A stretch of 64,000 bases of DNA, taken from Paracoccaceae bacterium (GTDB taxonomy: Bacteria > Pseudomonadota > Alphaproteobacteria > Rhodobacterales > Rhodobacteraceae). The notes under the pieces are model-generated. The model saw nothing but the letters and a program-made list of their open reading frames with translations. It did no database searches and was not told where the DNA came from. Below, piece after piece: positions 6,661 through 23,106 of the stretch. The DNA lies in the NCBI GenBank assembly GCA_024742405.1, contig JANSYP010000008.1, positions 39,106-103,105 on the forward strand. The letters run 5' to 3'. Made by a program: the position numbers and the translations under genes. Every line of letters starts with the position of its first letter. The first letter of the stretch is position 1.

Positions 6661-6681
6661 GATTTGGTGACCGAGTCACCG
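6661..6681. promoter_or_regulatory. Palindromic operator-like site, copy 1 (GATTTGGTGACCGAGTCACCG)
   Basis: Inverted repeat GGTGAC-N3-GTCACC. Its flanks are almost identical to copy 2 (GATTTGGTGA...AGTCACCG). It lies 54 nt upstream of the ATG at 6735 that heads the cydD remnant. Confidence 0.55.
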
Positions 6682-6734
6682 TCTCTTCCCGCGCATGTGT
6701 GGAAAAAGATCTGCGGTACTTTCGGGGAATCGCC

Positions 6735-7865
6735 ATGCTCGCTCAAGTAGATCGCACAGCCGAAAGCTGGTTGCGGCTGCGCTGTCTCGCCTCTGCGGGC
6801 GCAGGTGGACCAACCGTCGCCCTTTATCCGTCTCTGATGATTTGGATGCCTGAGCCGGCACCGTCCGGAACTCCACGTAACCTTCGGCATCACCCGCGCA
6901 GAGACCCTTCGCACGCGCACCATGGCCGTCCTGCGCATCGCCTTTCTGTCCTCGACGGTGCTGGAGCTTTTTTTCAGCCCTGGGCGTTGCGCTCGTCGCC
7001 GTTTTCGTCGGGTTCACCCTGCTCGGAGAAATCGGTTTCGGATCCTGGGGAACGCCGCTGACGCTCGGCCAGGCCCTGTTTCTGCTCCTGATCGCCCCCG
7101 AGTTATTCCAGCCGCTCCGCGACCTGGCACGACCGTGCCGCTGGCCATGTCGTCACCGCTGTACTGCATGCGCTGGATGCGGCGGACCGCGCGACTTGCC
7201 TCGGCCTTGGCCAGCCGTCCAGACCGCTGCCCGGACCGATTGCGTTGTCGCTCCGCGGCGTGCGCGTGGATATGCGTGGCCAGCTGGTACGCCTGCCCGA
7301 CGTTGCACTGCGCGGAGGCGATGCGCTCGCCCTGACCGGGCCGAGTGGCGCGGGCAAGAGCACCGCGCTCGCTGCCATTGCGGGACTGACCCCGATCGCG
7401 TCAGGCCGGATTGATGTGTGTGGCCTGGCGCTTAGTGCCGAAACCGCCGATGCATGGCGCGCCCGGATCGCCATGGTGCCGCAAGGCCCCCATTTCCCGG
7501 ATGTGCCGCTCGGGGACTGGCTCGATATCGCGAAGTCCGGCCGCGATCCGTGGCCCGCGCTCCGGAAGGCCGGGGCCGACGGCATCGTCACGCGCCTTCC
7601 CGAGGGTCTCGAAACCCGCCTGGGCGAGACCGGGGGCGGGGTGTCCGGCGGAGAGGCGCGCAGGCTGCTGCTGGCGCGCGCCATTCTCACGGGCAGTGAT
7701 CTCATCCTCGCCGACGAGCCGACCGCCGATCTCGACCGGGAGACGGCGGAGCGGATCATTGAAGCGCTCTGCGATCGCAACGTCGAAGGGTGCACGGTGA
7801 TCGTTGCGACCCATGACCCTGACCTCGCCGTCGCGATGGGCCGGCAGGTGGCGCTCACGGCATGA
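6735..7865 (+). pseudogene. cydD: cydD remnant (thiol-exporting ABC transporter CydD): large internal deletion plus at least two frameshifts
   Basis: The frame of ORF 6922 gives TMAVLRIAFLSSTVLELFFS. After the T7 run at 6968-6974 the CydD-like sequence continues one frame over (ALGVALVAVFVGFTLLGEIGFGSWGTPLTLGQALFLLLIAPELFQPLRDLA). It shifts again near 7120-7125 into ORF 7245..7865 (WHDRAAG..., Walker A GPSGAGKST, LSGGE, Walker B). Only about 1.1 kb remains where a CydD of about 570-590 aa needs about 1.75 kb. Confidence 0.8.
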
Positions 7866-8892
7866 GGGCGCTTCTGCAAATCGCCGGGCTGCTCTTGACC
7901 GCAGACCGGTGGGCCATGGCGCGGGGGGCTGCACTATCGGTCACCGTCCTGGCGATGGGGGCGGCACTTCTGGGACTCTCGGGCTGGTTCATCACCGCAA
8001 CCGGAATTGCGGGTCTTGCAGGGCTTGGGATCGCCTTCGATGTCTTCCGGCCATCGGCGGGCGTGCGCTTTCTGACGCTGGGGCGCACGGCTGCGCGCTA
8101 TGGCGAGCGACTGCTGACCCATGACGCGACGCTCCGCGCGCGGTCATCGGGGTTTTCGTGGCACTGGCGCTGGCCGAAACGCTGCTGCCCCTGCGGCGCG
8201 GCTTCTCCGATCTTGGTCGCATGGTGGGGGCCGCAAATCGCATCGCCCCGCGCGTGACACCGGCCCGTCCGGTCCAGGCCGGGTTGGAGCCGCTATCTGC
8301 TCCGTTGCTGGCCCTGGACTGCGCAGAGGGGATACTCACGCTTCAAGCCGGCGAGGCCGTCGTTGTCACTGGGCCCACCGGTGCCGGAAAATCCACCTTG
8401 CTGATGCAGATCGCGGGGCTCGGCGACGATGGCGGTATCTCGATCAAGGGCCATCGGCCAAACGACCGGCCCGAGAATGCGTTGCGCGCACTGGTCGCGG
8501 CGCTGCCGCAGAGAAGCGCGCTCATCGCCGGTACGGTGCGTGACAACCTGTCTCTCGCGGGCGACATGCGTGATCGGGACATGTGGGACGTTCTCGACGC
8601 GACGGCCCTGGCGCCCGACATCAGAGCCCGCGGAGGGCTCGACGGACGGCTGGGCGAAGGCGGTGCTGGTTTGTCGGGCGGGCAGGCGCCGCGCCTGACC
8701 CTGGCCCGTGTCCTGCTGAAGCACCCGCAGATCCTGCTTTTGGACGAGCCGACAGAGGGCCTCGACGCCGGCACCGCAGATGCGGTTCTGCGGAACGTAA
8801 GGGACTTCCTTCCGAACGCGCTGATCGTCGTGGCCATGCATCGGAGCGCGGATCGTCCGATTTTCGACAGGATCGTTCGGCTCTCGCCCTGA
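7862..8892 (+). pseudogene. cydC: cydC remnant: N-terminal ~90 aa joined out of frame to the last TM helix and the ATPase domain
   Basis: ORF 7862..8257 starts MRALLQIAGLL...LSGWFITATGIAGLAG...AGVRFLTLGRTAARYGERLLTHDATLRA (CydC N-terminus) and then becomes nonsense. ORF 8158..8892, in another frame, resumes with (AVIGVF)VALALAETLLPLRRGFSDLGRMVGAANRI followed by an ABC ATPase (GPTGAGKST, LSGGQ, LLLDEPTEGLD). About 600 bp of TMD-coding sequence is missing. The start overlaps the cydD stop (ATGA). Confidence 0.8.
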
Positions 8893-8910
8893 TTTGGTGA
8901 TGAAGTCACC
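8891..8910. promoter_or_regulatory. Palindromic operator-like site, copy 2 (GATTTGGTGATGAAGTCACC)
   Basis: Same motif as copies 1 and 3. It overlaps the cydC-remnant stop codon and lies 114 nt upstream of the cydA start. Confidence 0.55.
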
Positions 8911-9023
8911 GAGGCGTCCCGCCCGAACGATCTACACCACCCCTCGATGCGCAGCGGAGGCCGACTCGGGCTTGTCCGGGACCCGTTCGGTCCGCGCCGC
9001 GCAACGATCGAGGTGGAGCCAGA

Positions 9024-10700
9024 ATGGAGCTAGATGTCGTCGAGCTGTCGCGCCTGCAATTCGCGATGACAGCCATGTACCACTTCCTCTTCGTGCTGCT
9101 GACGCTGGGCCTGTCGGTCATCGTCGCGATCATGGAGACCGTCTATGTCATGACGGGCCGCCCGATCTGGCGGCAGATGACGAAATTCTGGGGCACGCTC
9201 TTCGGGATCAATTTCGTTCTTGGCGTCGCCACCGGCATCACCATGGAATTCCAGTTCGGCATGAACTGGAGCTACTACAGCCACTATGTCGGCGACATCT
9301 TCGGGGCGCCGCTCGCCATAGAAGGGCTGATGGCGTTCTTCCTCGAAGCGACCTTCGTCGGGCTCTTCTTCTTCGGCTGGGACAAGCTGACGAAGGTGCA
9401 GCATCTCACCGTCGCATGGCTCGTAGCACTCGGTTCGAACTTCTCGGCGCTCTGGATCCTGATCGCGAACGGATGGATGCAGAACCCCGTGGGGTCCGAG
9501 TTCAATCTCGATACGATGCGCATGGAAATGACGTCCTTCGCCGAGGTGCTCTTCAACGAGGTGGCCCAGGCGAAATTCGTGCATACTGTGTCGGCGGGCT
9601 ACGTGACCGCTGCGGTCTTCGTCCTCGGTGTCTCGGCCTGGTATCTGCTGATGGGCCGCCACATCGCGCTGGCGAAGCGCTCCATCACCATCGCGGCCTC
9701 CTTCGGACTGGCTGCGGCCCTCTCCGTCGTCGTGCTCGGCGACGAGTCGGGCTACTCCGCCAGCCACACCCAGAAGATGAAACTCGCCGCGATCGAGGCG
9801 ATGTGGGAGACCCACGACGCGCCCGCGCCCTTCACCATTGTCGGGTTTCCCGATCAGGCGGCGCGCGAGACCCACTATGCCGTGGAGATCCCCTGGGCCA
9901 TGGGTCTGATCGGCACGCGGTCCCTGACCGAAGAGATCCCGGGCATCGACGCCCTCGTGGCCGAGGCCGGTGACAGAATCCGTCGCGGTCTGATCGCTTA
10001 CGACGCGCTGATGGTCATCCAGGCAGAGCGCGAGACTGCGCCGGACGACGCCCGGCGGGTCTTCGAACAGACCAAGGACGATCTGGGCTATGCCTATCTG
10101 CTGAAACGCTATGTCGATGACCCGCGCGACGCGAACGATGCGCAGATCGCACAGGCGGCCTGGGACACCGTGCCCACCGTCTGGCCGCTTTTCTGGGCCT
10201 TCCGGATCATGGTGGGGCTCGGCTTCGCGTACATCGGCATGATGCTCTTTTTCTTCTGGCGGTCATCTTTCCGGGAACAGACCTATCCGCGCTGGGCGCT
10301 CTGGGGCGCAGTCTTTGCCATCCCGGCCCCCTGGATCGCGGCGGAACTGGGCTGGTTCGTCTCCGAATTCGGCCGTCGGCCCTGGACCGTGGATGGCGTC
10401 CTGCCGACGGCACTCTCGGCCAGCCACCTCAGCGTTCAGGACCTGCTGATCACGCTGGCGGGCTTCATGATCTTCTACACCATCCTCTTCATCGTCGAGA
10501 TGGGGCTGATGCTGAAATACATCCGCAAGGGCCCGTTCCAGGATGTCGAGGAAACCGACGCCTGGGAGGCGCGGCACGCGCATCGTCTGCGAACCCATGA
10601 CGGCCAGGGGCCCTTCGCTCCGGCCGGTGCGCGCGCGGCCTCGGCCGTTGGCGGCGCGCTCCCCGGCTCCAGCGCAACCCCGGTGGAGTACCTGACATGA
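9024..10700 (+). CDS. cydA: Cytochrome bd ubiquinol oxidase subunit I
   Basis: ORF track, 558 aa. N-terminus MELDVVELSRLQFAMTAMYHFLFV is the canonical CydA start. Multi-TM protein with a Q-loop-sized hydrophilic insert. Confidence 0.97.
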   Translation: MELDVVELSRLQFAMTAMYHFLFVLLTLGLSVIVAIMETVYVMTGRPIWRQMTKFWGTLFGINFVLGVATGITMEFQFGMNWSYYSHYVGDIFGAPLAIEGLMAFFLEATFVGLFFFGWDKLTKVQHLTVAWLVALGSNFSALWILIANGWMQNPVGSEFNLDTMRMEMTSFAEVLFNEVAQAKFVHTVSAGYVTAAVFVLGVSAWYLLMGRHIALAKRSITIAASFGLAAALSVVVLGDESGYSASHTQKMKLAAIEAMWETHDAPAPFTIVGFPDQAARETHYAVEIPWAMGLIGTRSLTEEIPGIDALVAEAGDRIRRGLIAYDALMVIQAERETAPDDARRVFEQTKDDLGYAYLLKRYVDDPRDANDAQIAQAAWDTVPTVWPLFWAFRIMVGLGFAYIGMMLFFFWRSSFREQTYPRWALWGAVFAIPAPWIAAELGWFVSEFGRRPWTVDGVLPTALSASHLSVQDLLITLAGFMIFYTILFIVEMGLMLKYIRKGPFQDVEETDAWEARHAHRLRTHDGQGPFAPAGARAASAVGGALPGSSATPVEYLT

Positions 10701-11860
10701 TCCTCCACGATCTCATCGAATTTGAAACCTTGCGCGTGATCTGGTCGGCGCTGCTCGGGCTCCTGCTGATCGGCTTCGGGCTGACCGACGGCTTCGATAT
10801 GGACGTGGGCGCGCTCCTGCCCTTCGTCGCCCGGACAGAACTGGAACGGCGCGTGGTGATCAACACGGTCGGGCCGGTCTGGGAGGGCAACCAGGTCTGG
10901 TTCATCCTGGGCGGCGGCGCGATCTTTGCTGCCTGGCCGCCGCTCTACGCGGTCAGCTTTTCGGGTTTCTACCTGGCGATGTTCGTCATTCTCGCCGCGT
11001 TCATCGTCCGGCCCGTGGCCTTCAAGTACCGCTCAAAGCGGGACAGCGCCAGCTGGCGGAGCGGCTGGGACTGGGCGCTGTGCGCCAGCGGGGCGATCCC
11101 CGCGCTCTTCTTCGGGGTCGCGGTGGGCAATGTCCTGTTTGGCGTGCCCTTTCACCTCAACGACATGCTGATGCCGCGCTATGATGGCTCCGTCCTGACC
11201 AAGTTCGCGGGGCTCTTGCGCCCCTTCGCACTGCTTGCCGGCGTCGTGTCCCTGGCGATGCTGCTGACGCACGGCGCGGCATGGCTCAGCCTGAAGGCCG
11301 AAGGTCCCGTCGCCCGCCGCGCGCGGCGGATCGGCAGCGGGGCCGGGCTGGTCGCCATGGCAGGCTACGCCCTGGCCGGATTCTGGCTCGCCACCGGCAT
11401 CCCCGGCTTCGCGCTGGTGGGGGAGGTTGTCACCGACGGCCCGTCCAACCCGCTCTATTCGCAGGTGTCGCAGGGCGGCTCCTGGCTCTCCGCCTACGCG
11501 GCGCGCCCCTGGATCGCGGTTGCGCCCCTCATGGGCTTCGTCGGCATGGCGCTGGCCATTCGCGGGCTGCGGGCCGGGCGCGAGCATTCGACGCTGCTCT
11601 GGTCGAAGCTCGGGATCACCGGTGTGATCTCGTCGGTGGGGCTTACGATGTTCCCCTTCATCCTGCCCTCGACCGTCGACCCGAACGCCTCGCCGACGGT
11701 GTGGGACGCCTCCTCCTCGCACCAGACGCTTTTCATCATGCTGGTCTGCACGGCGATCTTACTGCCGCTGATCCTCGCCTACACCGCGTGGGTCTACCGG
11801 GTGCTCTGGGGCAAGGTCACCGCAGCCAACGTCACCGCCAATGCCGACAGCCTCTACTGA
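10697..11860 (+). CDS. cydB: Cytochrome bd ubiquinol oxidase subunit II
   Basis: ORF track, 387 aa. ATGA overlap with cydA. Polytopic membrane protein with a CydB-like sequence (VWEGNQVWFILGGGAIFAAWP). Confidence 0.97.
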   Translation: MILHDLIEFETLRVIWSALLGLLLIGFGLTDGFDMDVGALLPFVARTELERRVVINTVGPVWEGNQVWFILGGGAIFAAWPPLYAVSFSGFYLAMFVILAAFIVRPVAFKYRSKRDSASWRSGWDWALCASGAIPALFFGVAVGNVLFGVPFHLNDMLMPRYDGSVLTKFAGLLRPFALLAGVVSLAMLLTHGAAWLSLKAEGPVARRARRIGSGAGLVAMAGYALAGFWLATGIPGFALVGEVVTDGPSNPLYSQVSQGGSWLSAYAARPWIAVAPLMGFVGMALAIRGLRAGREHSTLLWSKLGITGVISSVGLTMFPFILPSTVDPNASPTVWDASSSHQTLFIMLVCTAILLPLILAYTAWVYRVLWGKVTAANVTANADSLY

Positions 11861-11875
11861 GAAAGGAGGATCGCA

Positions 11876-12031
11876 ATGTGGTACTTCGCCTGGCTGCTCG
11901 GACTGCCCCTGGCCGCGGTCTTTGCCGTGATGAACGCCGTGTGGCTGGAGCTTCAGCGCGACCGCAGGCTGGCCGACGAGGATGGGCCGCACGCGGTGCA
12001 GCTGCCGCCAAAGCGGGTGGCCGCCGAGTAG
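11876..12031 (+). CDS. cydX: Cytochrome bd oxidase small subunit CydX (51 aa)
   Basis: Below the ORF-track size cut-off. AGGAGGA RBS 6 nt upstream. Translation MWYFAWLLGLPLAAVFAVMNAVWLELQRDRRLADEDGPHAVQLPPKRVAAE carries the MWYFxW single-TM signature of CydX. Starts 15 nt after cydB. Confidence 0.8.
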   Translation: MWYFAWLLGLPLAAVFAVMNAVWLELQRDRRLADEDGPHAVQLPPKRVAAE

Positions 12032-12078
12032 CCGAAAACCCGCCGCTGCAACGAAAACCAAAGAAGGGAGCAAGACCA

Positions 12079-13380
12079 ATGGAAAGACGTCAGTTCCTGT
12101 CCCTAGCACTGGGAGGAGGGGCGGCGACGCTCGCCGCCGCGGGGCGCCCGGCAGAGGCCGCCCCGGTTCGGACATCGGCGCGCATCGTCATCATCGGCGC
12201 CGGAGCCGCCGGAACGGCGCTCGCCAACCGATTGACCCGCCGCCTCGACGGGGCCCAGATCACGATCATCGACCCTCGGCAGCAGCATCTTTACCAGCCG
12301 GGGCTGTCGCTCGTCGCCGCCGGGCTGAAACCTTCGAGCTACGTCGTCTCGGACACGGCCCAGTGGCTGCCCTCCGGCGTGACCTGGCTGCCGGAACGGG
12401 TCGCGGCCGTGGATGCCGAGGCCAAGACGGTCGCGACCGAAGGCGGTCAGATGCTGCCTTACGACTGGCTGGTCGTCGCATCCGGCCTCTTGCTGGATCA
12501 TGATGCAATCGAGGGTTTCAGCCTCGACATGGTCGGCGAGAACGGGCTCGGCGCGCTCTATGCCGGACCGGAGCATGCCGCCCGGACATGGGCCGCGGCC
12601 TCGAAATTCATCGAAGAAGGCGGTACCGCGCTCTTCACCCGGCCCGCGACCGAGATGAAATGCGCCGGCGCGCCGCTCAAGCACGCCTTTCTGATCGACG
12701 ACATCGCGCGCCGCGCCGGCAGCGCAAGCAAGACCAACATGGTCTATCTCGCGCCGCAGGGTGTGCTCTTCAGCGTGCCGATCGTCGCCGAAAAGGTCCG
12801 GATGCTCATTGGGGAGCGCGGCATCGACACGCAGTTCAACCAGACGCTGAAATCCATCGATGCCGGCGCCCGGCGCGCGACCTTCACGTCCGAGACCGGC
12901 GGCGAGACCGAGATGGACTATGACTATCTCCAGGTCATCCCACCGCAGCGCGCGCCCGATTTCGTGCGCCAGTCCGGCCTCAGCTGGGCGGACCGGTGGG
13001 TGGATCAGGGCTGGATAGAGGTCGACCCCGCAACCCTGCGACACCGCCGCTACCCGGAGATCTTCGCCGTGGGCGACATCGCCGGCGTGCCCAAGGGCAA
13101 GACCGCCGCCAGCGTGAAATGGCAGGTGCCGGTGGTCGAGGATCATCTGGTCGGCGCCATCGAGGGCCGCGAGGGGTCCCAGACCTACAACGGCTACACC
13201 TCCTGTCCGCTCATCACCCGGGTCGGGCGCGCGATGCTGGTGGAGTTCGACTACCAGAACAACCTCACGCCCTCCTTTCCCGGGATCATCGCGCCGCTGG
13301 AAGAGCTCTGGATCAGCTGGCTGATGAAGGAGGTGGCGCTGAAAGCCACCTACAACGCAATGCTCCGTGGCCGGGCGTAG
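12079..13380 (+). CDS. sqr: Sulfide:quinone oxidoreductase (type II-like) with twin-arginine signal peptide
   Basis: In-frame ATG at 12079 inside track ORF 11281..13380, with a GGGAG RBS. MERRQFLSLALGGGAATLAAAGRPAEA is a Tat-type leader. GAGAAG FAD fold; motifs HLYQPG, KCAGAPLK and YNGYTSCPL match the two redox cysteines of type II SQR. Confidence 0.88.
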   Translation: MERRQFLSLALGGGAATLAAAGRPAEAAPVRTSARIVIIGAGAAGTALANRLTRRLDGAQITIIDPRQQHLYQPGLSLVAAGLKPSSYVVSDTAQWLPSGVTWLPERVAAVDAEAKTVATEGGQMLPYDWLVVASGLLLDHDAIEGFSLDMVGENGLGALYAGPEHAARTWAAASKFIEEGGTALFTRPATEMKCAGAPLKHAFLIDDIARRAGSASKTNMVYLAPQGVLFSVPIVAEKVRMLIGERGIDTQFNQTLKSIDAGARRATFTSETGGETEMDYDYLQVIPPQRAPDFVRQSGLSWADRWVDQGWIEVDPATLRHRRYPEIFAVGDIAGVPKGKTAASVKWQVPVVEDHLVGAIEGREGSQTYNGYTSCPLITRVGRAMLVEFDYQNNLTPSFPGIIAPLEELWISWLMKEVALKATYNAMLRGRA

Positions 13381-13390
13381 GGAGGGACCG

Positions 13391-13759
13391 ATGAAAGACC
13401 TGACATTCTCTACGCTGGTCGCGGTGTTCGAAGAGGTTTTCGGACGCGGGCTCTTCTGGATGATGGTCGCGGCTGCGGCACTCATCACGCTTGGATATCT
13501 CTACGTCCTGCTGCGCGACCGTGCGGTGAGCTGGAAGAAATTCCTGCTCGCCCAGCTGTCGATGCCGGTCGGGGCGGTTCTCGCGGTCTGGTTCGTCATG
13601 GTGATGACCGAGTCCCACCTGTCCGACCTCGGCGGTCCGGTCGACATCATCGTTTTTCTGGCCGTCGCCGCGGTGGGCGCCGTGGGCATGGCGATCCTCG
13701 TCTACACGCTTGAGTCGCTCCTGGGCTCGACGCGCACCAAGCGTGCGCCGGAGGGATGA
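13391..13759 (+). CDS. Small membrane protein (about 3 TM), unknown function
   Basis: ATG at 13391 after GGAGGGA, 10 nt downstream of sqr. Hydrophobic segments LFWMMVAAAALITLGYLYVLL, VGAVLAVWFVMVM, IIVFLAVAAVGAVGMAILVY. Confidence 0.5.
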   Translation: MKDLTFSTLVAVFEEVFGRGLFWMMVAAAALITLGYLYVLLRDRAVSWKKFLLAQLSMPVGAVLAVWFVMVMTESHLSDLGGPVDIIVFLAVAAVGAVGMAILVYTLESLLGSTRTKRAPEG

Positions 13760-13787
13760 GCATGGTCCGACAGGCAAGGAGCCGGTC

Positions 13788-14762
13788 ATGAGCAGCCTTG
13801 AGCACGCAGCGGCGCCCGAGGCCGCACCCGCCCGGCTGGAGCACTTTCCGATCACCTTCTTCGGGGTCACGATGGGGCTTTTCGGGCTGGCCCTGGCGCT
13901 CCGCGCCGGAGGGGTCGCGGCGACGTCGCTGCTCGTGACGGCGGGTACCGCGTTGCTGCTGATCGCGCTGGCGGGCCTCTATGCCCTCAAGATCCTGCGG
14001 CATCCCGATCAGGTCGCTGCGGAATGGCAGCACCCTGTCCGGCTCTCCTTCTTTCCGGCCGCGAACATCTCGGTCCTGCTCCTGTCGCTTCTGCTGCAGG
14101 ACAGCCTGCCGGGCGTCTCGGCCGTGCTCTGGGGGCTGGGTGCCGTCATTCAGGCGATCCTGACGATCGTCATCGTATCGGCCTGGATTTCCCATCGCGC
14201 CTTTGTGCCCGGGATGCTGTCGCCGGCCTGGTTCATCCCCGCGGTCGCCAATGTGATCGTGCCCCTCGGCGGGGCGCATCTGGCGCTCTTCGAGATCAGC
14301 TGGTACTTCTTTTCGGTCGGGCTCCTGTTCTGGGCGATCCTCCTGACGCTGGTCTTCAATCGCCTGATCTTTCACGATCCGCTGCCGGGCAAACTGCGCC
14401 CGACCATGGTGATCCTGATCGCCCCGCCCTCGGTCGCGTTCCTGGCCTGGACCGAGCTGAATGGCGGCAGCCTCGATGCGGCTGGCCTGTTTCTCTTCAA
14501 TACCGGGCTTTTCTTCGCGGCGCTTGTCGCGGTGCAGGTGCCCGCGCTGCTGCGTCTGCCCTTCGCGATGTCCTTCTGGGCGCTGTCCTTCCCGCTGGCC
14601 GCACTGACGACAGCGGTCTTCCGCTACGGCGCGCTCAGCGGAAATCACCTCTCCCAATTGGCGGGTTTCGGCCTTCTCGGCCTGCTCGCCGTCACCATCG
14701 CCGCGCTGTCGGTCCGCACCATCCGTGCGGCGATGGCTGGCGAAATCTGCAAACCGGAATAA
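13788..14762 (+). CDS. TehA/SLAC1 (TDT) family anion channel/transporter
   Basis: ATG at 13788 after AAGGAG. LEHFPITFFGVTMGLFGLALALR resembles the TehA N-terminal motif. About 10 TM helices. Confidence 0.75.
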   Translation: MSSLEHAAAPEAAPARLEHFPITFFGVTMGLFGLALALRAGGVAATSLLVTAGTALLLIALAGLYALKILRHPDQVAAEWQHPVRLSFFPAANISVLLLSLLLQDSLPGVSAVLWGLGAVIQAILTIVIVSAWISHRAFVPGMLSPAWFIPAVANVIVPLGGAHLALFEISWYFFSVGLLFWAILLTLVFNRLIFHDPLPGKLRPTMVILIAPPSVAFLAWTELNGGSLDAAGLFLFNTGLFFAALVAVQVPALLRLPFAMSFWALSFPLAALTTAVFRYGALSGNHLSQLAGFGLLGLLAVTIAALSVRTIRAAMAGEICKPE

Positions 14763-14786
14763 ACCCCAAACCACAGGAGATCCTTC

Positions 14787-15221
14787 ATGAAAAAACTCAT
14801 CCTTTCCGCCCTTCTGGCGGCCACGACCGCGGCGTCAGCCTTTGCCGAGGACGCGTCCAAACTCGTGACCGTCGTGACATCGGCCGAGCCGCAGACCCAG
14901 CTGATGGCCATGGTGCTGACCATGCAGGCCGCGCAGCAGGGCGCCGCCGCGCACATCCTGCTCTGCGGACCGGCCGGCGACATCGCGCTCCGGGACGCGC
15001 CTGCCACGGCAACCACGGGCCAGCCGCCCCGCGATATGAGCCCCCAGGGACTGATGCAGATGATCCGCGAGAAAACCGGCGCGACCGTCGAGGTGTGCGC
15101 GATCTACCTGCCCGGGCGCGGTGACGATGCTTCGGTCCTCCTGGACGGGATCAGTGTCGCCAAGCCGGACGAAATGGCCGGACGGCTGATCGCGCCGAAC
15201 ACCCGCGTTCTGTCCTTCTGA
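14787..15221 (+). CDS. DsrE/DsrF-like sulfur-relay family protein with Sec signal peptide
   Basis: ORF track, 144 aa. MKKLILSALLAATTAASAFA-ED is a leader peptide. The mature part, KLVTVVTSAEPQTQLMAMVLTMQAAQQGA..ILLCGPAGD...VEVCAIYL, is DsrE-fold-like. Confidence 0.6.
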   Translation: MKKLILSALLAATTAASAFAEDASKLVTVVTSAEPQTQLMAMVLTMQAAQQGAAAHILLCGPAGDIALRDAPATATTGQPPRDMSPQGLMQMIREKTGATVEVCAIYLPGRGDDASVLLDGISVAKPDEMAGRLIAPNTRVLSF

Positions 15222-15238
15222 GGCGCCACGCGCCTCGA

Positions 15239-15282
15239 TCACCTGCCGCTCTGCGAAACGCGCGCGTCAGGGCGGCAGGTGA
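15239..15282 (+). repeat. Inverted repeat TCACCTGCCGC-N22-GCGGCAGGTGA between the dsrE-like and rhodanese genes
   Basis: 11-bp perfect arms read directly. No T-tract follows, so it is not a classical terminator. Confidence 0.5.
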
Positions 15283-15341
15283 CATCGGCGGGCGCCAGAC
15301 GGCCCGCGCGCGCCCGTTCCACCCCGACTTGGAGAACTCTC

Positions 15342-15929
15342 ATGCGCATTCTCACCCGCATCGCAGCAATCTTGGCGCTGGCTCTGGCAGCCGCTGCCGC
15401 TATCGCCGCGCCGGAACCGGATGACCCCGGAAAACGGACCTCCTGGGGCCTCTATCTGACCTCGAAAGAAGCCTACGACTTGAAGCAGGCGCAAGGTGAC
15501 GACGCGCTCTTTGTCGATGTCCGTGAACCGGTCGAGATCATGTTCACCGGCTTCACTGACGTCGTGGACATCAACGTCCCCTTCATGCTGGTCGACCCGT
15601 CGGCTTGGCACCCGGATAAACCTGTCCTGAAGATGGAGAAGAACCCGGACTTCGCCGCCGGCATCCTTTCAGCGCTCGACGCACGTGGCCTCGACCGTAC
15701 CGCGCCGGTGATCCTGATGTGCCGCTCGGGCGGCACGCGCGGCGCGCCCTCCGCCAACGCGCTCGAGGGGCACGGGCTGGAGCAGGTCTATGTCGTGGTC
15801 GACGGGTTCGAAGGATCGGCGCGCAAGGACACGCCCGACGCCCCGTGGCGCCTCGTCAACGGCTGGAAAAATGCGGGCCTGCCCTGGAGCTATGATCTGA
15901 ACCCCGCGAAAATCCATCTGAGGGACTAG
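15342..15929 (+). CDS. Rhodanese-domain sulfurtransferase with signal peptide
   Basis: In-frame ATG at 15342 after GGAGAA. MRILTRIAAILALALAAAAAIA-AP is a leader peptide. The active-site loop CRSGGTRG is typical of rhodanese. Confidence 0.8.
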   Translation: MRILTRIAAILALALAAAAAIAAPEPDDPGKRTSWGLYLTSKEAYDLKQAQGDDALFVDVREPVEIMFTGFTDVVDINVPFMLVDPSAWHPDKPVLKMEKNPDFAAGILSALDARGLDRTAPVILMCRSGGTRGAPSANALEGHGLEQVYVVVDGFEGSARKDTPDAPWRLVNGWKNAGLPWSYDLNPAKIHLRD

Positions 15930-15946
15930 GCAGCGCGCGGCGGCGG

Positions 15947-16864
15947 TCACATCGCCGGGGCACTCGCGGCCAGGTCCGACCGCGCCGCCGTCAGGCAGGC
16001 TCCGATCTCTGCGAAGAGCTGCGCATGGGGCGAGCTCTGCCGCCATGCCAGGGCGATCTGGCGCGGGCGCGCGCCTTCGAGCGCGCCGAGATGCAGCGCA
16101 TGACCCCTTGAGATGCCCGCATCGATGGCGAGCTTCGGCAGCAGCGTGATGCCGATCTCCTCCTCGACCATCGCCACGAGGGTCGAGAGGCTCGTCGCGG
16201 CAAAGCTCGGATCTTCGTCCAATGTGATGTCCGGAAAACTCGACAGCGCATGGCGCTGCAGACAGTGGCCTCGCTCCAGAAGCAGCAGCTTCCTGTCGAC
16301 CAGATCCTCCGACCGGATCGTGCTGCGGTTGCCTAGCGGATGGTCCGTCGGCGTCGCGAGCCAATAACCGTCGCTGAACAGGATCTCCGTTTCGATCTGC
16401 GCCGGCAGCGGGTGCGGCAGCGCCATCAGGATCAGGTCGAGCCGGCCCTCCATCAGCCCCTCGACCAGCGGATCGGTCAGTTCCTCGCGCAGATAGAGCT
16501 TTGTATCAGGCAGCGCCGCGCGCAAACGCGGCATCGCCCGCGGCATCAAAAACGGCCCCACCGTCGGGATCGTGCCGAGGCGCAGGGCGGTTGCCTGCGC
16601 GGCGTTTTCGCGCTGGGCCCGCTCCTCGAGATCCTGAACCCCGGCCAGGATCCCGCGCGCCCGCTCGGCAAGATCGCGGCCGACGGGCGTCATCAGCACG
16701 CGGTGCTTGGTCCGCTCGGCCACCTGAACGCCCAGCCGACTCTCCAGCTCCTTCAATCCGGTCGAAAGTGTGGATTGTGTGACGTGGCACAACTCCGACG
16801 CGCGCGAGAAGCTTAGGGTCTTGTCCAACGCGACAAGGAATCGGAGCTGGCGGAGGCTGGTCAT
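15947..16864 (-). CDS. oxyR: LysR-family regulator, OxyR-like, lacking the second redox cysteine
   Basis: ORF track, 305 aa. HTH FSRASELCHVTQSTLSTGLKELE. LLLLERGHCLQRHALSSFPDITLDEDPSFAATSLSTL aligns with E. coli OxyR LLMLEDGHCLRDQAMGFCFEAGADEDTHFRATSLETL. Divergent from a peroxiredoxin gene. Confidence 0.8.
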   Translation of the reverse strand: MTSLRQLRFLVALDKTLSFSRASELCHVTQSTLSTGLKELESRLGVQVAERTKHRVLMTPVGRDLAERARGILAGVQDLEERAQRENAAQATALRLGTIPTVGPFLMPRAMPRLRAALPDTKLYLREELTDPLVEGLMEGRLDLILMALPHPLPAQIETEILFSDGYWLATPTDHPLGNRSTIRSEDLVDRKLLLLERGHCLQRHALSSFPDITLDEDPSFAATSLSTLVAMVEEEIGITLLPKLAIDAGISRGHALHLGALEGARPRQIALAWRQSSPHAQLFAEIGACLTAARSDLAASAPAM

Positions 16865-16965
16865 TGCTTATCGATTTAGTGAATAGCCAGAAGCTTCACA
16901 ATCAATTTCCAAGATTGCCGAGCGCGCCATATCTGACCAGCATCGCAAAATAGAGGAGCAAGGAC

Positions 16966-17628
16966 ATGACTGCGCACGCCACTGCCGCCGCGGAAACGGC
17001 CACCGGACTGCCGCGGCTGAACGAACCCGCACCCTACTTTGACGCGCTGACGACCCACGGCCGCAAGACCCTGACCGATTACAAGGACAAGTGGCTGATC
17101 CTGTTTTCCCACCCCGCCGATTTCACGCCGGTCTGCACCACCGAATTCACGGCCTTTGCCGCCCATGCGGCGGAGTTCGCGGCGCTCGATACTGAACTCC
17201 TGGGTCTCTCCATCGACAGCCACTATGCCCACATCGCCTGGGTCCGCGCGATCCGGGACAGTTTCGGCGTCGAGATCCCCTTCCCGATCATCGCTGACCT
17301 GGACATGAAGGTCGCGCAGACCTTCGGCATGATCCAGCCTGGGGCCTCGGATACCCAGGCGGTCCGGGCCACCTTCGTCATCGACCCCGAGGGCATCCTG
17401 CGCGCGATGGTCTACTACCCGATGTCCAACGGGCGGTCGGTCGGTGAGATCCTGCGCCTTGTGACGGCACTGCAGACCTCCGACAGCGAGGGCGTCGCGA
17501 CACCGGAAAACTGGCAGCCGGGACAGGACGTCATCGTGCCGCCGCCCCAGACCGCCGAGGCCGCGGATGCGCGGATGTGGGAAGGCTTTGAGACGAAGGA
17601 CTGGTACTTTTCCACCAGAACGCTTTGA
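16966..17628 (+). CDS. 1-Cys peroxiredoxin (Prx6 subfamily)
   Basis: ORF track, 220 aa. FSHPADFTPVCTTE peroxidatic motif; no resolving Cys motif seen. Confidence 0.9.
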   Translation: MTAHATAAAETATGLPRLNEPAPYFDALTTHGRKTLTDYKDKWLILFSHPADFTPVCTTEFTAFAAHAAEFAALDTELLGLSIDSHYAHIAWVRAIRDSFGVEIPFPIIADLDMKVAQTFGMIQPGASDTQAVRATFVIDPEGILRAMVYYPMSNGRSVGEILRLVTALQTSDSEGVATPENWQPGQDVIVPPPQTAEAADARMWEGFETKDWYFSTRTL

Positions 17629-17714
17629 TCAGTCAGGTGAACCGACCGTTGGTGCGTCTGGGAACCGGACGCGCCGCACAGCGCCGGATATCGGAAACCG
17701 GGGAAAGCAAGCGC

Positions 17715-18389
17715 ATGGAAAACGCATGGATCGATCGCTTCAAGGGGCTGAGCCGCCTGCCCGACGACATCCGCGCCGAGCTTGAACAGGGCAGCCAGAT
17801 CGTCTCCGTCCCGGCCGGCACGCAGATCTTCGCGCCCGGTCAGACCGCGGACAATCTGTTGCTGCTGCTGGACGGCACAGTGCGGGTCCAGCAGAAGTCC
17901 GAGACCGGGCGCGAAGTCTTTCTCTACCGTGTCCATGCCGGCGAAAGCTGCGTTCTGACCACCGCCTGCATGCTGGCCTTCGAGGACTACTCCGCCGACG
18001 GGATTGCCGAAACCGACGTCTCCGCCGCTGCGATCCCGCGGCGGACCTTCGACAGTCTGGTGGCCAAATCCCCGGTCTTTCGCGAGTTCGTCTTCACCGC
18101 CTATTCGCGGCGGATCACGGACCTCTTCACCCTGATCGACGATATCGTTTTTCAGCGCATGGATGTCCGGCTGGCCGCGCGCCTGCTGGAGCTGGTCGAC
18201 GAAAACGGCGTCGTGCGCGCGACCCATGCCGTGCTTGGGACCGAGCTCGGAACGGCGCGCGAGGTGATCTCGCGCACCCTGTCCGAATTCCATCGCCGCG
18301 GCTGGGTCGAACAGTCCCGCGGTGAAGTTCACATTACGGGTCGTGCGGGGCTCGAACGGCTGGTCAGATCGTCGGGGGCACAGGCCTGA
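17715..18389 (+). CDS. Crp/Fnr-family transcriptional regulator (no FNR-type N-terminal Cys cluster)
   Basis: In-frame ATG at 17715 within track ORF 17625..18389. Has a cNMP-binding-like beta-roll and a C-terminal HTH, LGTELGTAREVISRTLSEFHRRGWV, with the E-x-x-S-R signature. Only two cysteines, as CX5C (ESCVLTTACML). Confidence 0.85.
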   Translation: MENAWIDRFKGLSRLPDDIRAELEQGSQIVSVPAGTQIFAPGQTADNLLLLLDGTVRVQQKSETGREVFLYRVHAGESCVLTTACMLAFEDYSADGIAETDVSAAAIPRRTFDSLVAKSPVFREFVFTAYSRRITDLFTLIDDIVFQRMDVRLAARLLELVDENGVVRATHAVLGTELGTAREVISRTLSEFHRRGWVEQSRGEVHITGRAGLERLVRSSGAQA

Positions 18390-18407
18390 CCGCGCTGAGG
18401 CCCGGAT

Positions 18408-18432
18408 GCTTTGGTGACCAAGTCACCAAAGC
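18408..18432. promoter_or_regulatory. Palindromic operator-like site, copy 3 (GCTTTGGTGAC-CAA-GTCACCAAAGC)
   Basis: Perfect 11-bp arms. Lies 19 nt after the Crp/Fnr gene stop and 250 nt upstream of the pdo-like gene. Confidence 0.6.
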
Positions 18433-19567: not shown

Positions 19568-19588
19568 GATCCGAGGGAGGGGACAGTT

Positions 19589-21268: not shown

Positions 21269-21362
21269 GCGGCAGGCCGCATTTCCCCGTGCCGCGCTTT
21301 ATGCGCCATGACCGGCGGGCGGAACATCCCACTCCGTCCGCCCCCCTGTTCCGGACGCCAGA

Positions 21363-23099: not shown

Positions 23100-23106
23100 G
23101 GTTGCG

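What the first reader, a model, noticed from the sequence alone, without database searches (positions are those of the whole stretch)
6661..18432. One palindrome, three copies: in front of the cydDC remnant, cydABX-sqr and pdo-sqr-sulP
Seen in the sequence:
- Copy 1: GATTTGGTGACCGAGTCACCG (6661-6681).
- Copy 2: GATTTGGTGATGAAGTCACCG (8891-8911).
- Copy 3: GCTTTGGTGACCAAGTCACCAAAGC (18408-18432).
- The consensus is TTTGGTGAY-N3-GTCACC. All three copies are intergenic and upstream of a same-strand operon.
- By eye I found no further intergenic copy in the window.
- Copy 3 sits 19 nt after a Crp/Fnr-family regulator gene whose recognition helix carries the FNR-like E-x-x-S-R signature.

Caveat: the half-site GTGAC resembles FNR/Dnr-type TTGAC half-sites, but the central spacer is one bp shorter than in canonical TTGAT-N4-ATCAA or TGTGA-N6-TCACA sites. 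Assigning the site to this regulator therefore rests on proximity only.

Inference: a shared operator ties bd oxidase expression to both sulfide-oxidation arms.
Basis: partly seen in the sequence, partly recalled or inferred. Interest (0 to 1): 0.75.

Follow-up and report, generated by a model that had tools for sequence, protein, structure and literature searches.

The report
Sulfide-regulon binding site of Crp/Fnr regulator
The three palindromes are real, conserved promoter sites that most likely let an uncharacterised Crp/Fnr-family regulator switch on sulfide-detoxifying enzymes and the sulfide-resistant cytochrome bd oxidase together, using a half-site spacing one base shorter than usual for that family.

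Summary
Exactly three copies of TTTGGTGAY-N3-GTCACC lie at the stated coordinates, where none is expected by chance.

Comparative genomics supports the interpretation and sharpens it.
- In 80 genomes that carry an orthologue of the adjacent Crp/Fnr gene ("CrpX", 74-96% identical), the same 19-bp motif lies just after the regulator's stop codon.
- There it heads the YgaP-TM/YeeE/PDO/sulfurtransferase-SQR/SulP operon. It precedes 54 of 56 YgaP-TM genes and 19 of 23 cydA genes.
- It is absent upstream of OxyR, Prx and CrpX itself.
- Ninety-seven sites share an extended -10 element at a fixed distance. This puts the site centre at about -42, with no -35 hexamer, which is the geometry of a class II activator rather than a classical operator.
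- The half-site GTGA fits the recognition helix R-E-V-I-S-R. The N3 spacing is conserved down to 42-50%-identical relatives in Acidithiobacillus and Thioalkalivibrio.
- The protein's only two cysteines (C-x5-C, in the beta-roll) are conserved across the family.

Copy 1 fronts a degraded cydDC. It matches a lineage-specific site in front of intact cydDC in the nearest relative.

No paper in the searched library links this regulator family to sulfide. The signal and the binding itself remain inferred.

The parts
6664..6682 (+). Site 1 (TTGGTGACCGAGTCACCGT, centre 6673), upstream of the degraded cydD'C' genes
   Evidence: 22.8 bits. An orthologous site lies 231 nt upstream of intact cydD in the nearest relative L202. 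Eight cydD genes of other genera have no such site.
6700..6708 (+). Predicted extended -10 of site 1 (TG at 6700-6701, hexamer AAAAAG at 6703-6708)
   Evidence: The positions match the conserved T+27, G+28 and A+31 found in 97 aligned sites. Read. No transcription start has been measured.
6895..8892 (+). cydD' (6895-7865, three frames, residues 1-230 missing) and cydC' (7862-8892, residues 94-282 deleted at 8140): pseudogenes
   Evidence: tblastn with intact CydD and CydC of L024. Only ABC_tran domains are left. L202 has intact copies of both genes.
8894..8912 (+). Site 2 (TTGGTGATGAAGTCACCGA, centre 8903), 121 nt before the cydA start codon; it begins just after the cydC' stop codon
   Evidence: 28.4 bits. 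An orthologous site precedes 19 of 23 cydA genes at a median of 115 nt.
8933..8938 (+). Predicted -10 hexamer of site 2 (TACACC, A at +31)
   Evidence: The same TACACC is seen at this offset in L010 and L026.
9024..15929 (+). Genes downstream of site 2, in order:
- cydA 9024-10700
- cydB 10697-11860
- cydX 11876-12031
- Tat-signal SQR-like flavoprotein 12079-13380
- DUF5368 13367-13759
- TehA/SLAC1 13710-14762
- unknown gene 14787-15221
- rhodanese 15279-15929
   Evidence: Pfam and NCBIfam scans. The cydX ORF and the Tat signal MERRQFLSLALGGGAATLAAAGRPAEA were read. The gene order is shared with L201 and L202.
15947..16864 (-). OxyR-like LysR regulator, divergent from the peroxiredoxin gene; not the binder of the motif
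   Evidence: NCBIfam OxyR model, 3.6e-63. None of 19 OxyR genes and none of 18 Prx genes has a site upstream.
16966..17628 (+). 1-Cys peroxiredoxin, directly upstream of the regulator gene
   Evidence: The Prx-CrpX pair is conserved in 18 loci.
17715..18389 (+). CrpX, a Crp/Fnr-family regulator of 224 aa and the proposed binder. Recognition helix R182-E-V-I-S-R187. Its only cysteines are C79 and C85.
   Evidence: - Pfam cNMP_binding plus HTH_Crp_2.
- Orthologues 74-96% identical in 80 genomes.
- Cys conservation 80/81 and 77/81; 126/132 and 94/132 in the wider family.
- AlphaFold model with a Crp fold.
18411..18429 (+). Site 3 (TTGGTGACCAAGTCACCAA, centre 18420), a perfect palindrome that starts 21 nt after the CrpX stop codon
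   Evidence: 32.2 bits. The same position is occupied in nearly all 80 loci and in D. shibae.
18447..18455 (+). Predicted extended -10 of site 3 (TG at 18447-18448, hexamer AACGGT at 18450-18455)
18626..23099 (+). Genes downstream of site 3:
- persulfide dioxygenase 18626-19567
- sulfurtransferase(DUF442)-SQR fusion 19589-21268
- SulP/STAS transporter 21363-23099

The YgaP-TM and the two YeeE-half genes that head this operon in relatives are missing here.
   Evidence: The extra genes in relatives were identified. Their absence from the window is shown.

Best explanation
The palindrome is the DNA-binding site of the adjacent Crp/Fnr-family regulator, here called CrpX. CrpX is the orthologue of a Dinoroseobacter shibae Crp/Fnr gene, most likely Dshi_2521 ('DnrB'), for which no function has been described.

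The site:
- Its 19-bp consensus is T-T/C-G/T-G-T-G-A-C-n-W-n-G-T-C-A-C-C-R-A.
- Each monomer of the CrpX dimer reads a CRP-like GTGA half-site through Arg182, Glu183 and Arg187 of the recognition helix.
- The two half-sites are one base pair closer (GTGA-N5-TCAC) than in CRP or FNR sites.

The promoters:
- The site is centred about 42 bp upstream of the predicted transcription start.
- These promoters have an extended -10 (TGn-nAnnnT) and no -35 hexamer.
- CrpX would therefore act as a class II activator that replaces the -35 contact.

The regulon in this window:
- site 3 heads pdo, ST-sqr and sulP;
- site 2 heads cydABX, a periplasmic SQR-like flavoprotein, DUF5368, tehA and a rhodanese;
- site 1 is a lineage-specific promoter in front of the now degraded cydDC.

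The biological logic is that sulfide poisons haem-copper oxidases. One regulator therefore co-induces sulfide and persulfide removal, sulfur-anion transport, and the sulfide-insensitive bd oxidase.

The inducing signal is most likely sulfide or sulfane sulfur. It would be sensed in the beta-roll pocket, where the protein's only two cysteines (C79-x5-C85) sit.

Shown:
- the existence and conservation of the site;
- its co-occurrence with the regulator gene;
- its fixed distance to a -10-like element;
- the content of the regulon;
- the conservation of the cysteines.

Inferred:
- binding by CrpX;
- activation rather than repression;
- the identity of the signal;
- the role of the cysteines.
For: 1. 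Statistics. There are three perfect copies in 64 kb where none is expected. In 1.48 Mb of orthologous loci, 115 hits reach 12 bits, against about 1 in shuffles.

2. The site travels with the regulator.
- It lies 0-200 nt after the CrpX stop codon in nearly all 80 genomes.
- It is found on metagenome contigs with 57-75%-identical orthologues.
- It is found in D. shibae DFL12.
- In 42-50%-identical relatives an N3-spaced GTGAY-N3-RTCAC again follows the regulator gene. In 6 of 8 such loci a YgaP-TM gene comes next. These include Acidithiobacillus, Thioalkalivibrio and gammaproteobacterial MAGs.

3. Regulon counts. Sites precede YgaP-TM 54/56, cydA 19/23 and PDO 12/58 (the loci where no YgaP-TM gene lies between the site and PDO). 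They precede OxyR 0/19, Prx 0/18 and CrpX 0/80.

4. Promoter geometry. In 97 sites aligned on their centres, T+27 is 72%, G+28 78%, A+31 86%, T+35 45% and A+42 58%. Nothing resembling -35 is present at +7 to +12.

5. Match between helix and half-site. CrpX has R-E-x-x-S-R, conserved in about 120 of 132 family representatives. From established work on CRP and FNR, Arg180, Glu181 and Arg185 of CRP read GTGA, whereas Val208 in FNR gives TTGA.

6. DNA site, not RNA hairpin. The half-sites vary independently. For example, position -7 is T opposite +7 C in 19 sites, with only 2 compensated. There is no Rfam match.

7. Sensor. C79 and C85 are the only cysteines. They are conserved 80/81 and 77/81, and 126/132 and 94/132 in the wider family. 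They are also conserved in PDB entry 3dv8.

8. Content. Every gene behind the sites belongs to sulfide or persulfide handling or to bd oxidase.
Against: - No binding, expression or transcription-start data exist. The -42 position rests on a predicted -10 element.
- The half-site spacing is one bp shorter than in every Crp/Fnr site I can name from memory, so the docking geometry is unexplained.
- The loci were chosen through CrpX homology. Co-occurrence of site and regulator gene is therefore partly built in, and no genome-wide distribution of the site was obtained.
- The scoring matrix was built from strict core matches, so scores favour that core.
- A 30%-identical paralogue with the same R-E-V-V-S-R helix sits near cydDC or tatSQR in some genera. 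It could share or compete for the sites there.
- The signal could be something other than sulfide, such as respiratory inhibition, NO or CO.
- Dedicated persulfide sensors known so far are mostly repressors (review PMC13467558).
Confidence: 0.72

Rival explanations
1. The site is bound by CrpX, but CrpX is a repressor. It occupies the -35 region in the absence of sulfide and leaves the DNA when its cysteines are persulfidated, as CstR, SqrR and BigR do.
For: The known dedicated sulfane-sulfur sensors with a cysteine pair are mostly repressors (review PMC13467558). The site overlaps the region where a -35 element would lie. CrpX has a conserved cysteine pair.
Against: There is no -35-like hexamer under or beside the site. 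The spacing to the -10 is held within about one bp over 97 sites. A fixed spacing is needed for a class II activator contact and is not needed for steric repression. By established knowledge, Crp/Fnr proteins centred near -41.5 are activators.
Confidence: 0.15
2. The palindrome is recognised by another regulator: the OxyR-like LysR protein next door, the Crp paralogue found near cydDC in some genera, or an unlinked factor. CrpX is then only a neighbour.
For: The odd-length 13-bp core has the format of LysR-type boxes and does not fit the even spacing of Crp/Fnr sites (read directly from the sequence). The paralogue carries the same R-E-V-V-S-R helix.
Against: - None of 19 OxyR-Prx intergenic regions holds a site, although LysR regulators normally bind their own divergent promoter.
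- Most loci with CrpX and the site have no detectable OxyR-like gene in the fetched flanks of up to 10 kb.
- The window has no paralogue.
- The motif follows CrpX-family genes into Acidithiobacillus and Thioalkalivibrio, where neither neighbour is present.
Confidence: 0.07
3. CrpX binds the site and activates, but the physiological signal is not sulfide. It would be a more general cue of respiratory or redox stress: inhibition of haem-copper oxidases, NO, CO, low oxygen or peroxide. A haem or metal held by Cys79 might sense it.
For: - bd oxidase protects against several respiratory poisons.
- CrpX is co-transcribed with a peroxiredoxin next to an OxyR-like gene.
- Cys79 is more conserved than Cys85 (126 against 94 of 132), as expected for a single ligand residue.
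This is a lead only.
Against: Most of the regulon is specific for sulfide and persulfide chemistry: PDO, two SQR-type enzymes, sulfurtransferases, YeeE/YedE halves and YgaP-TM. In D. shibae the Crp/Fnr genes Dshi_2521 and Dshi_2528 took no part in the aerobic-anaerobic network (PMC5398030).
Confidence: 0.2
4. The palindrome is a dispersed repeat (REP-like) or an RNA hairpin or terminator at the end of the regulator gene, with no role in promoter control.
For: It is a perfect 9+9 inverted repeat directly after a stop codon. Exact matches occur in many unrelated metagenome contigs.
Against: - There are only three copies in 64 kb, all before sulfide or bd genes.
- No T-run follows the palindrome and there is no Rfam match.
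- The stems show no compensatory changes, but the bases themselves are strictly conserved.
- Copies 1 and 2 are imperfect palindromes.
- The metagenome matches away from CrpX genes have random central triplets and lie in unrelated taxa, as expected by chance for 16 fixed bases in so large a collection.
Confidence: 0.02

Closest known systems
CRP (cAMP receptor protein) class II promoters, site TGTGA-N6-TCACA centred at -41.5
   Same: - Same protein fold and domain order.
- Same Arg-Glu...Arg pattern in the recognition helix.
- Same GTGA half-site; about a quarter of sites even read TGTGA.
- Same position relative to the -10 element, and no -35 element.
   Different: - The half-sites are one bp closer (GTGA-N5-TCAC), so the symmetry centre falls on a base pair, which is A/T in 96-98% of sites.
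- A conserved C follows GTGA.
- NCBIfam CRP and FNR models score far below their cut-offs.
- The pocket holds a conserved C-x5-C.
- The regulon is a small sulfide and bd-oxidase set, not catabolite control.
FNR / FnrL / Dnr / FixK regulators, site TTGAT-N4-ATCAA
   Same: Same superfamily, the E-x-x-S-R motif in the recognition helix, class II geometry, and control of a terminal oxidase in response to a respiratory cue.
   Different: - CrpX has no N-terminal cysteine cluster. It has only two cysteines, both in the beta-roll.
- Arg replaces the FNR Val before the Glu, and the half-site is GTGAC rather than TTGAT.
- The spacer is N3 rather than N4.
- The D. shibae Crp/Fnr genes Dshi_2521 and Dshi_2528, one of which is the CrpX orthologue, played no part in the oxygen and NO network (PMC5398030).
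Dedicated sulfane-sulfur sensors: SqrR/BigR/YgaV (ArsR family), CstR (CsoR family), FisR (sigma-54 activator)
   Same: - The regulated genes match: sqr, pdo/blh, DUF442 or rhodanese sulfurtransferases, YeeE/YedE-type transporters and YgaP-type membrane proteins.
- A conserved cysteine pair is present.
- The regulator gene lies next to its target operon.
   Different: - The protein family differs. A 2026 review lists only CsoR, ArsR and Fis-type primary sensors, with MarR, OxyR and PerR as secondary ones (PMC13467558).
- The inferred mode is class II activation rather than de-repression.
- Cytochrome bd is in the same regulon through the same site.
- Reactivity of the cysteines has not been tested.
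CooA and HcpR (haem-based gas-sensing Crp/Fnr regulators)
   Same: Same fold; P. gingivalis HcpR (9day) is among the structural matches. These are class II-type activators of a small detoxification or respiration regulon.
   Different: There is no evidence for haem. CooA did not appear in the PDB sequence search at E <= 0.001. The sites of those proteins have even spacing (from memory).
PDB 3dv8, a Crp/Fnr-family protein of Eubacterium rectale (structural genomics, no function)
   Same: It is the best solved relative by sequence (E 4.4e-21) and it keeps both cysteines of the C-x5-C motif.
   Different: It comes from a Firmicute and has no known site or regulon. Identity is only about 26-35%.

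Membership tests
Crp/Fnr superfamily of transcription factors (the regulator) | N-terminal cNMP-binding-type beta-roll domain | tested here: met
   Pfam PF00027, 50.6 bits against a cut-off of 27.5, residues 60-148 of the long ORF. The AlphaFold model shows the beta-roll.
Crp/Fnr superfamily of transcription factors (the regulator) | C-terminal Crp-type helix-turn-helix after a long dimerisation helix, with overall fold similarity to solved members | tested here: met
   PF13545, 52.6 bits. The model has a helix at 120-160 and an HTH at 171-194. Foldseek probability is 1.00 to T. thermophilus CAP 4ev0, 3dv8, GlxR and M. tuberculosis CRP. The PDB sequence search gave 38 Crp/Fnr entries.
FNR-type regulators and sites | Cysteine cluster (three N-terminal Cys plus one central Cys) for a [4Fe-4S] centre | tested here: not met
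   The protein has only two cysteines, C79 and C85, and none is N-terminal.
FNR-type regulators and sites | Site TTGAT-N4-ATCAA (14 bp, even symmetry) | tested here: not met
   The consensus of 97 sites is GTGAC-nWn-GTCAC, with an N3 spacer and G rather than T at the first half-site position.
CRP-type sites | Half-site (T)GTGA read by Arg-Glu...Arg of the recognition helix | tested here: met
   G-T-G-A is 97-98% conserved. The helix is R182-E183-x-x-S-R187. The reading rule itself is established knowledge and was not tested here.
CRP-type sites | Six-bp spacer between TGTGA and TCACA | tested here: not met
   The spacer is five bp in all sites scored. An N3-type core also follows 5 of 7 distant relatives' genes.
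Class II activator-dependent promoter | Activator site centred near -41.5, overlapping the -35 region, with a recognisable -10 and no -35 hexamer | tested here: inconclusive
   The sequence evidence fits. TG lies at +27/+28, A at +31 and T at +35 from the centre, which puts the centre at -42, and there is no -35. No transcription start has been measured.
Dedicated sulfane-sulfur (persulfide) sensors | Regulon made of sqr, pdo, sulfurtransferase and sulfur-anion transporter genes, next to the regulator gene | tested here: met
Dedicated sulfane-sulfur (persulfide) sensors | Conserved cysteine pair that forms a di- or polysulfide bridge with sulfane sulfur | not testable with these tools
   A conserved C-x5-C pair exists. 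Its chemistry cannot be examined here.
Dedicated sulfane-sulfur (persulfide) sensors | Membership of the CsoR, ArsR or Fis/sigma-54 families | tested here: not met
   The protein is a Crp/Fnr family member. The list of sensor families is taken from PMC13467558.
REP-like dispersed palindromes / intrinsic terminators | Many copies without regard to gene function, or a hairpin followed by a T-run, with pairing kept by compensatory change | tested here: not met
   There are three copies in 64 kb, all at sulfide or bd promoters. No T-run follows the palindrome. There are no compensatory changes.
LysR-type (OxyR) binding box | Site in the regulator's own divergent promoter | tested here: not met
   No motif is found upstream of any of 19 OxyR-like genes or 18 Prx genes.

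The most novel reading that the evidence does not exclude
CrpX founds a fourth family of dedicated sulfide or sulfane-sulfur-sensing transcription factors.
- It is a Crp/Fnr-type class II activator that senses through a conserved C-x5-C pair in the ligand pocket. A haem or metal held by Cys79 is an alternative.
- It binds a palindrome whose half-sites are one bp closer than in any described Crp/Fnr site.
- The family is widespread. There are 403 clusters at 50% identity with E <= 1e-30, found in Roseobacters, Stappia, Hoeflea, Acidithiobacillus, Thioalkalivibrio and many uncultured Gammaproteobacteria.
- Its ancestral target is the small YgaP-type membrane protein.
- In marine Rhodobacterales it has been extended to couple sulfide oxidation with the sulfide-resistant bd oxidase.
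Probability: 0.45. Interest if true: 0.85.

Novelty: new variant of a known kind. Interest (0 to 1): 0.7.

Why it matters
- **Regulatory link.** Sulfide poisons haem-copper oxidases, and bacteria are known to answer with sulfide oxidation and a switch to cytochrome bd. How the two responses are wired together is known for few organisms. Here a single conserved site, and apparently a single regulator, does both in a large group of abundant marine bacteria (the Roseobacter group and relatives).
- **A new sensor family.** The regulator belongs to a family not so far counted among sulfide or persulfide sensors. A new sensing chemistry in the well-studied Crp/Fnr scaffold may be waiting to be described.
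- **A structural question.** The conserved one-bp-shorter spacing asks how a Crp-type dimer docks on half-sites rotated by about 36 degrees.
- **A function for orphan genes.** The result offers a testable function for D. shibae Dshi_2521 (DnrB) and Dshi_2528 (DnrC), which had none.
- **A practical tool.** The motif can be used to annotate sulfide-responsive genes, such as DUF5368, the YgaP-TM protein and TehA-like channels, in genomes and metagenomes.

Tried and rejected
1. **Searching the literature for the motif itself.** TTGGTGAC gave only primers and unrelated hits. Written forms such as GTGAC-N3-GTCAC gave nothing.

2. **Literature searches joining Crp/Fnr with sqr, pdo, sulfane sulfur, Roseobacter, DUF2892 or the Dshi locus tags**.
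   - No paper assigns this regulator a function.
   - Only PMC5398030 names Dshi_2521 and Dshi_2528, and it gives them no function.

3. **Metagenome scan for the exact 19-mer**.
   - 109 of 120 hits were chance matches in unrelated taxa, so the scan is useless as a count.
   - The other 11 hits lay beside CrpX orthologues or PDO genes, or both, and extended the link to 57-75% identity.

4. **Is copy 1 a recent duplicate of copy 2?** The flanks do not align beyond the site. No similarity of 5919-6900 to any fetched locus was found. Rejected.

5. **Does copy 1 serve the divergent ORF 6078-6623?** The -10 features are absent on that strand (read). The ORF has no family match or homologue. Rejected.

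6. **The OxyR-like LysR regulator as the binder.** Rejected, because no site lies in its own promoter region.

7. **RNA structure or a known RNA family.** Rejected.

8. **The generic sigma-70 and terminator scan** found nothing at the three sites. The -10 element emerged only from the alignment of 97 sites.

9. **My first GC3-based gene caller** missed the SQR gene and had to be revised. Intergenic and coding labels in the loci come from that heuristic and from tblastn, not from curated annotation.

Full report
**1. Observation**

The three sequences are at the stated coordinates.
- The 18-nt pattern TTTGGTGAYNNNGTCACC has three perfect + strand matches in the window. Copy 3 also matches on the - strand.
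- With up to 3 mismatches there are 9 matches, against a mean of 2.0 in dinucleotide-preserving shuffles. No shuffle reached 9.
- A fourth match to the 15-nt core lies at 59555. It has no TTT flank and sits inside a long coding ORF.

**2. Gene map**

| Coordinates | Strand | Feature |
|---|---|---|
| 810-5918 | - | RTX/RCC1 giant protein |
| 6673 (centre) | + | site 1 |
| 6895-7865 | + | cydD' (pseudogene) |
| 7862-8892 | + | cydC' (pseudogene) |
| 8903 (centre) | + | site 2 |
| 9024-10700 | + | cydA |
| 10697-11860 | + | cydB |
| 11876-12031 | + | cydX |
| 12079-13380 | + | Tat-signal SQR-like flavoprotein |
| 13367-13759 | + | DUF5368 |
| 13710-14762 | + | TehA/SLAC1 channel |
| 14787-15221 | + | unknown gene |
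| 15279-15929 | + | rhodanese |
| 15947-16864 | - | OxyR-like LysR regulator |
| 16966-17628 | + | 1-Cys peroxiredoxin |
| 17715-18389 | + | Crp/Fnr regulator 'CrpX' |
| 18420 (centre) | + | site 3 |
| 18626-19567 | + | persulfide dioxygenase |
| 19589-21268 | + | DUF442 sulfurtransferase-SQR fusion |
| 21363-23099 | + | SulP/STAS transporter |

The window comes from a Rhodobacteraceae MAG: an identical CrpX protein is on record under that name.

**3. The motif follows the regulator**

CrpX is unusually conserved. It is 74-96% identical in 80 species-level genomes of Ruegeria, Roseovarius, Palleronia, Marivita, Thioclava, Paracoccus, Stappia, Roseibium, Hoeflea, Amorphus and others.

- A strict pattern search found the palindrome within about 40 nt of the regulator's stop codon in some 30 of these loci.
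- A 19-bp weight matrix found it in nearly all of them. This includes variants that read TGTGAC in the promoter-distal half.
- Over the 1.48 Mb examined, 115 positions score at least 12 bits, against about one in shuffled sequence.
- The central base is A or T in 96-98% of sites.

**4. What lies behind the sites**

In most genera the site after CrpX heads an operon of these genes:
- a 70-aa YgaP-like membrane protein (PF11127);
- two YeeE/YedE halves (PF04143, DUF6691);
- PDO, ST-SQR and SulP.

Counts of genes with a site no more than 330 nt upstream:

| Gene | With a site / total |
|---|---|
| YgaP-TM | 54 / 56 (median 65 nt) |
| cydA | 19 / 23 (median 115 nt) |
| PDO (loci where no YgaP-TM gene lies between site and PDO) | 12 / 58 |
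| tatSQR | 3 / 21 |
| cydD | 0 / 8 |
| OxyR-like | 0 / 19 |
| Prx | 0 / 18 |
| CrpX | 0 / 80 |

Sites 2 and 3 of the window are therefore orthologous to widely conserved promoter sites. The OxyR-like neighbour is not the binder, and CrpX does not appear to autoregulate through this motif.

**5. Promoter geometry**

I aligned 97 distinct intergenic sites on their centres, oriented towards the downstream gene. A second conserved element appears at a fixed distance:

| Position from site centre | Base | Frequency |
|---|---|---|
| +26 | R | - |
| +27 | T | 72% |
| +28 | G | 78% |
| +31 | A | 86% |
| +35 | T | 45% |
| +42 | A | 58% |

- This is the pattern of an extended -10 promoter (TGn-TAnnnT), with A-11 at +31 and T-7 at +35. 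The predicted start is then at +42 and the site centre at -42.
- Positions +7 to +12, where a -35 hexamer would lie, are part of the site (C-R-A) or unconserved.
- All three window copies fit: copy 1 has TG and A-11, copy 2 has TACACC, and copy 3 has TGcAACGGT.
- With a median of 65 nt from the site centre to the YgaP-TM start codon, the leader would be about 23 nt and would carry the visible GGAG ribosome-binding site.

This is the architecture of class II CRP/FNR-dependent promoters (established knowledge: centre at -41.5). It is an inference from sequence. No start site has been measured.

**6. DNA site, not RNA structure or repeat**

- The two half-sites vary independently. Position -7 is T opposite an unchanged C at +7 in 19 sites, and only two are compensated.
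- Nothing in 5900-23500 reaches an Rfam gathering score.
- No T-run follows the palindrome.
- An exact-match scan of metagenomes returned 120 contigs. Eleven lie beside CrpX orthologues (57-75% identity) or PDO genes, or both. The rest are in unrelated taxa with random central triplets, as chance predicts for 16 fixed bases.

**7. Fit between protein and site**

- The recognition helix is A-R-E-V-I-S-R.
- In CRP the corresponding Arg180, Glu181 and Arg185 read GTGA. FNR has Val at the first position and reads TTGA (established knowledge). The observed G-T-G-A, 97-98% conserved, is therefore what this helix should read.
- The spacing does not fit.
- The spacing is not an accident of one lineage. 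In relatives only 42-50% identical, an N3-spaced core again follows the regulator gene:
  - Acidithiobacillus: GTGATTAAGTCAC;
  - Thioalkalivibrio: GTGACAAGATCAC;
  - a gammaproteobacterial MAG: GTGATTTTGTTAC;
  - a metagenome contig (L210): GTGACTTAGTCAC;
  - a near match in one further locus.
- In six of the eight loci examined (seven distinct genomes), the next gene is again a YgaP-like membrane protein.
- In several of those gammaproteobacterial loci a sigma-54 activator next to an SQR gene and rhodanese genes lie close by. The family is thus generally embedded in sulfur loci.

**8. The sensor**

- CrpX has only two cysteines, C79 and C85. They are conserved in 80 and 77 of 81 orthologues.
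- Among 132 full-length representatives of the wider family (35-57% identity), C79 is kept in 126 and C85 in 94. They sit within the signature G-E-S/T-C-x-L-T-T-A/S-C-L. The R-E-V-V/I-S-R helix is kept in about 120.
- The AlphaFold model (pLDDT 79) has the Crp fold. It places the pair on the short helix 80-88 inside the beta-roll, where CRP binds the cAMP phosphate (the CRP comparison is inference).
- The best solved relative, 3dv8 from Eubacterium rectale, keeps both cysteines.
- A cysteine pair is the hallmark of CstR, SqrR and BigR-type persulfide sensors (PMC13467558). That makes persulfide sensing the leading idea.

**9. Copy 1 and gene decay**

In the window:
- CydD residues 1-230 are gone, and the rest is split over three frames.
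- CydC lacks residues 94-282, with the junction at 8140.

In the relatives:
- L201 is 94% identical in DNA and keeps the cydC stretch that the window lacks.
- L202 belongs to the same MAG as L001. It has intact cydD and cydC, and a 17.6-bit site (TCAGTGATCAAGTCACCGT) 231 nt before cydD, with TG at +27/+28 and A at +31.
- More distant genera have no site before cydD.

Copy 1 is therefore a lineage-specific cydDC promoter site that has outlived its genes.

The window lineage has also lost the YgaP-TM and YeeE genes between site 3 and PDO. Only the ribosome-binding site and start codon are left. Whether these losses are real or are MAG assembly faults cannot be decided here.

**10. What is known**

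- Ebert et al. 2017 (PMC5398030) list seven Crp/Fnr genes in D. shibae.
- They state that Dshi_2521 (DnrB) and Dshi_2528 (DnrC) belong to 'subgroup B', take no part in the oxygen and NO network, and have no predictable function.
- The D. shibae CrpX orthologue (ABV94254.1) lies seven to eight genes from a 251-aa paralogue. A 30.5-bit site follows it, placed before the YgaP-TM/YeeE/PDO/SulP operon. It is therefore most likely Dshi_2521, and the paralogue Dshi_2528. This assignment is an inference from gene order.
- A review dated August 2026 lists primary sulfane-sulfur sensors only in the CsoR, ArsR and Fis/sigma-54 families.
- Six further searches found no paper tying a Crp/Fnr protein to sqr, pdo or cyd control, or describing the motif.
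- NCBIfam has no model that this protein passes.

**11. Verdict**

- The best reading is a class II activator site for an uncharacterised, widespread Crp/Fnr subfamily. In marine Rhodobacterales this subfamily couples sulfide and persulfide detoxification to cytochrome bd.
- It is a new variant of a known kind. The scaffold and promoter logic are familiar. The spacing, the regulon and the likely signal are new.
- Main weaknesses:
  - there is no experimental binding, start-site or induction evidence;
  - the loci were selected through the regulator, so no genome-wide site census exists;
  - the signal is unknown.

Noticed in passing
window 6895-8892: cydD and cydC are decayed. CydD residues 1-230 are missing and there are two frameshifts. 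CydC has a 190-residue internal deletion at 8140. cydABX downstream looks intact. Relatives at 90-94% DNA identity keep intact copies, so the loss is very recent or is a MAG assembly fault. If it is real, bd oxidase assembly would need another cydDC copy elsewhere in the genome.
   Followed up: partly
window 18430-18625: The YgaP-like TM gene and the two YeeE/YedE-half genes that follow site 3 in most relatives are missing here. The ribosome-binding site and an ATG at 18485 remain, opening a short ORF that has no similarity to them. The same state is seen in L001 and L201.
   Followed up: partly
L022 121-837, L024 882-1652, L033 3-758, L018 5663-6295, L211 3599-4354: A second Crp-family gene, about 30% identical to CrpX, has the same R-E-V-V-S-R helix and keeps C79 but not C85. 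It sits upstream of cydDC, or of tatSQR, in several genera. It is absent from the window. It may share or compete for the same sites. In L018 and L211 a site precedes it or its operon.
   Followed up: partly
window 12079-14762: Downstream of cydABX lie a Tat-exported SQR-like flavoprotein, a DUF5368 protein and a TehA/SLAC1-type anion channel. The trio is conserved in about 20 loci, sometimes with its own site. This suggests a periplasmic sulfide-oxidation and anion-export module whose parts are uncharacterised.
   Followed up: no
window 15947-17628: An OxyR-like LysR gene is divergent from a 1-Cys peroxiredoxin gene that directly precedes CrpX. The arrangement is conserved in 18 loci. It suggests that the regulator's own level is set by an OxyR-type peroxide or sulfane-sulfur response.
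   Followed up: no
window 810-5918 (- strand): A 1702-aa protein with RCC1 repeats, RTX calcium-binding repeats, FG-GAP repeats and a Big_5 domain lies directly beside the cyd locus.
   Followed up: no
window 24000-28000 and 56000-58000: G+C falls to 0.56-0.58, against 0.64-0.67 in the sulfide locus. In the relative L201, small ORFs and a ParB_N gene follow sulP. These stretches may be mobile or foreign DNA.
   Followed up: no
L205 9552-12287, L206 6218-8953, L210 9478-12341, L209 11256-12638: In gammaproteobacterial relatives, a sigma-54 activator lies within a few kb of the CrpX-family/YgaP-TM pair. It has the PAS, Sigma54_activat and HTH_8 domains of a FisR-like protein. An SQR-type flavoprotein gene lies beside it in L205, L206 and L210; in L209 the locus ends at the activator. 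Rhodanese genes lie close by in L205, L206 and L209. Two different sulfide-related regulators may therefore coexist in one locus.
   Followed up: no
L203 434-4020 (Acidithiobacillus sp.): cydAB lies divergent from another Crp-family gene about 3 kb upstream of the CrpX-family/YgaP-TM pair. A bacterial globin gene and a PadR gene lie in between.
   Followed up: no
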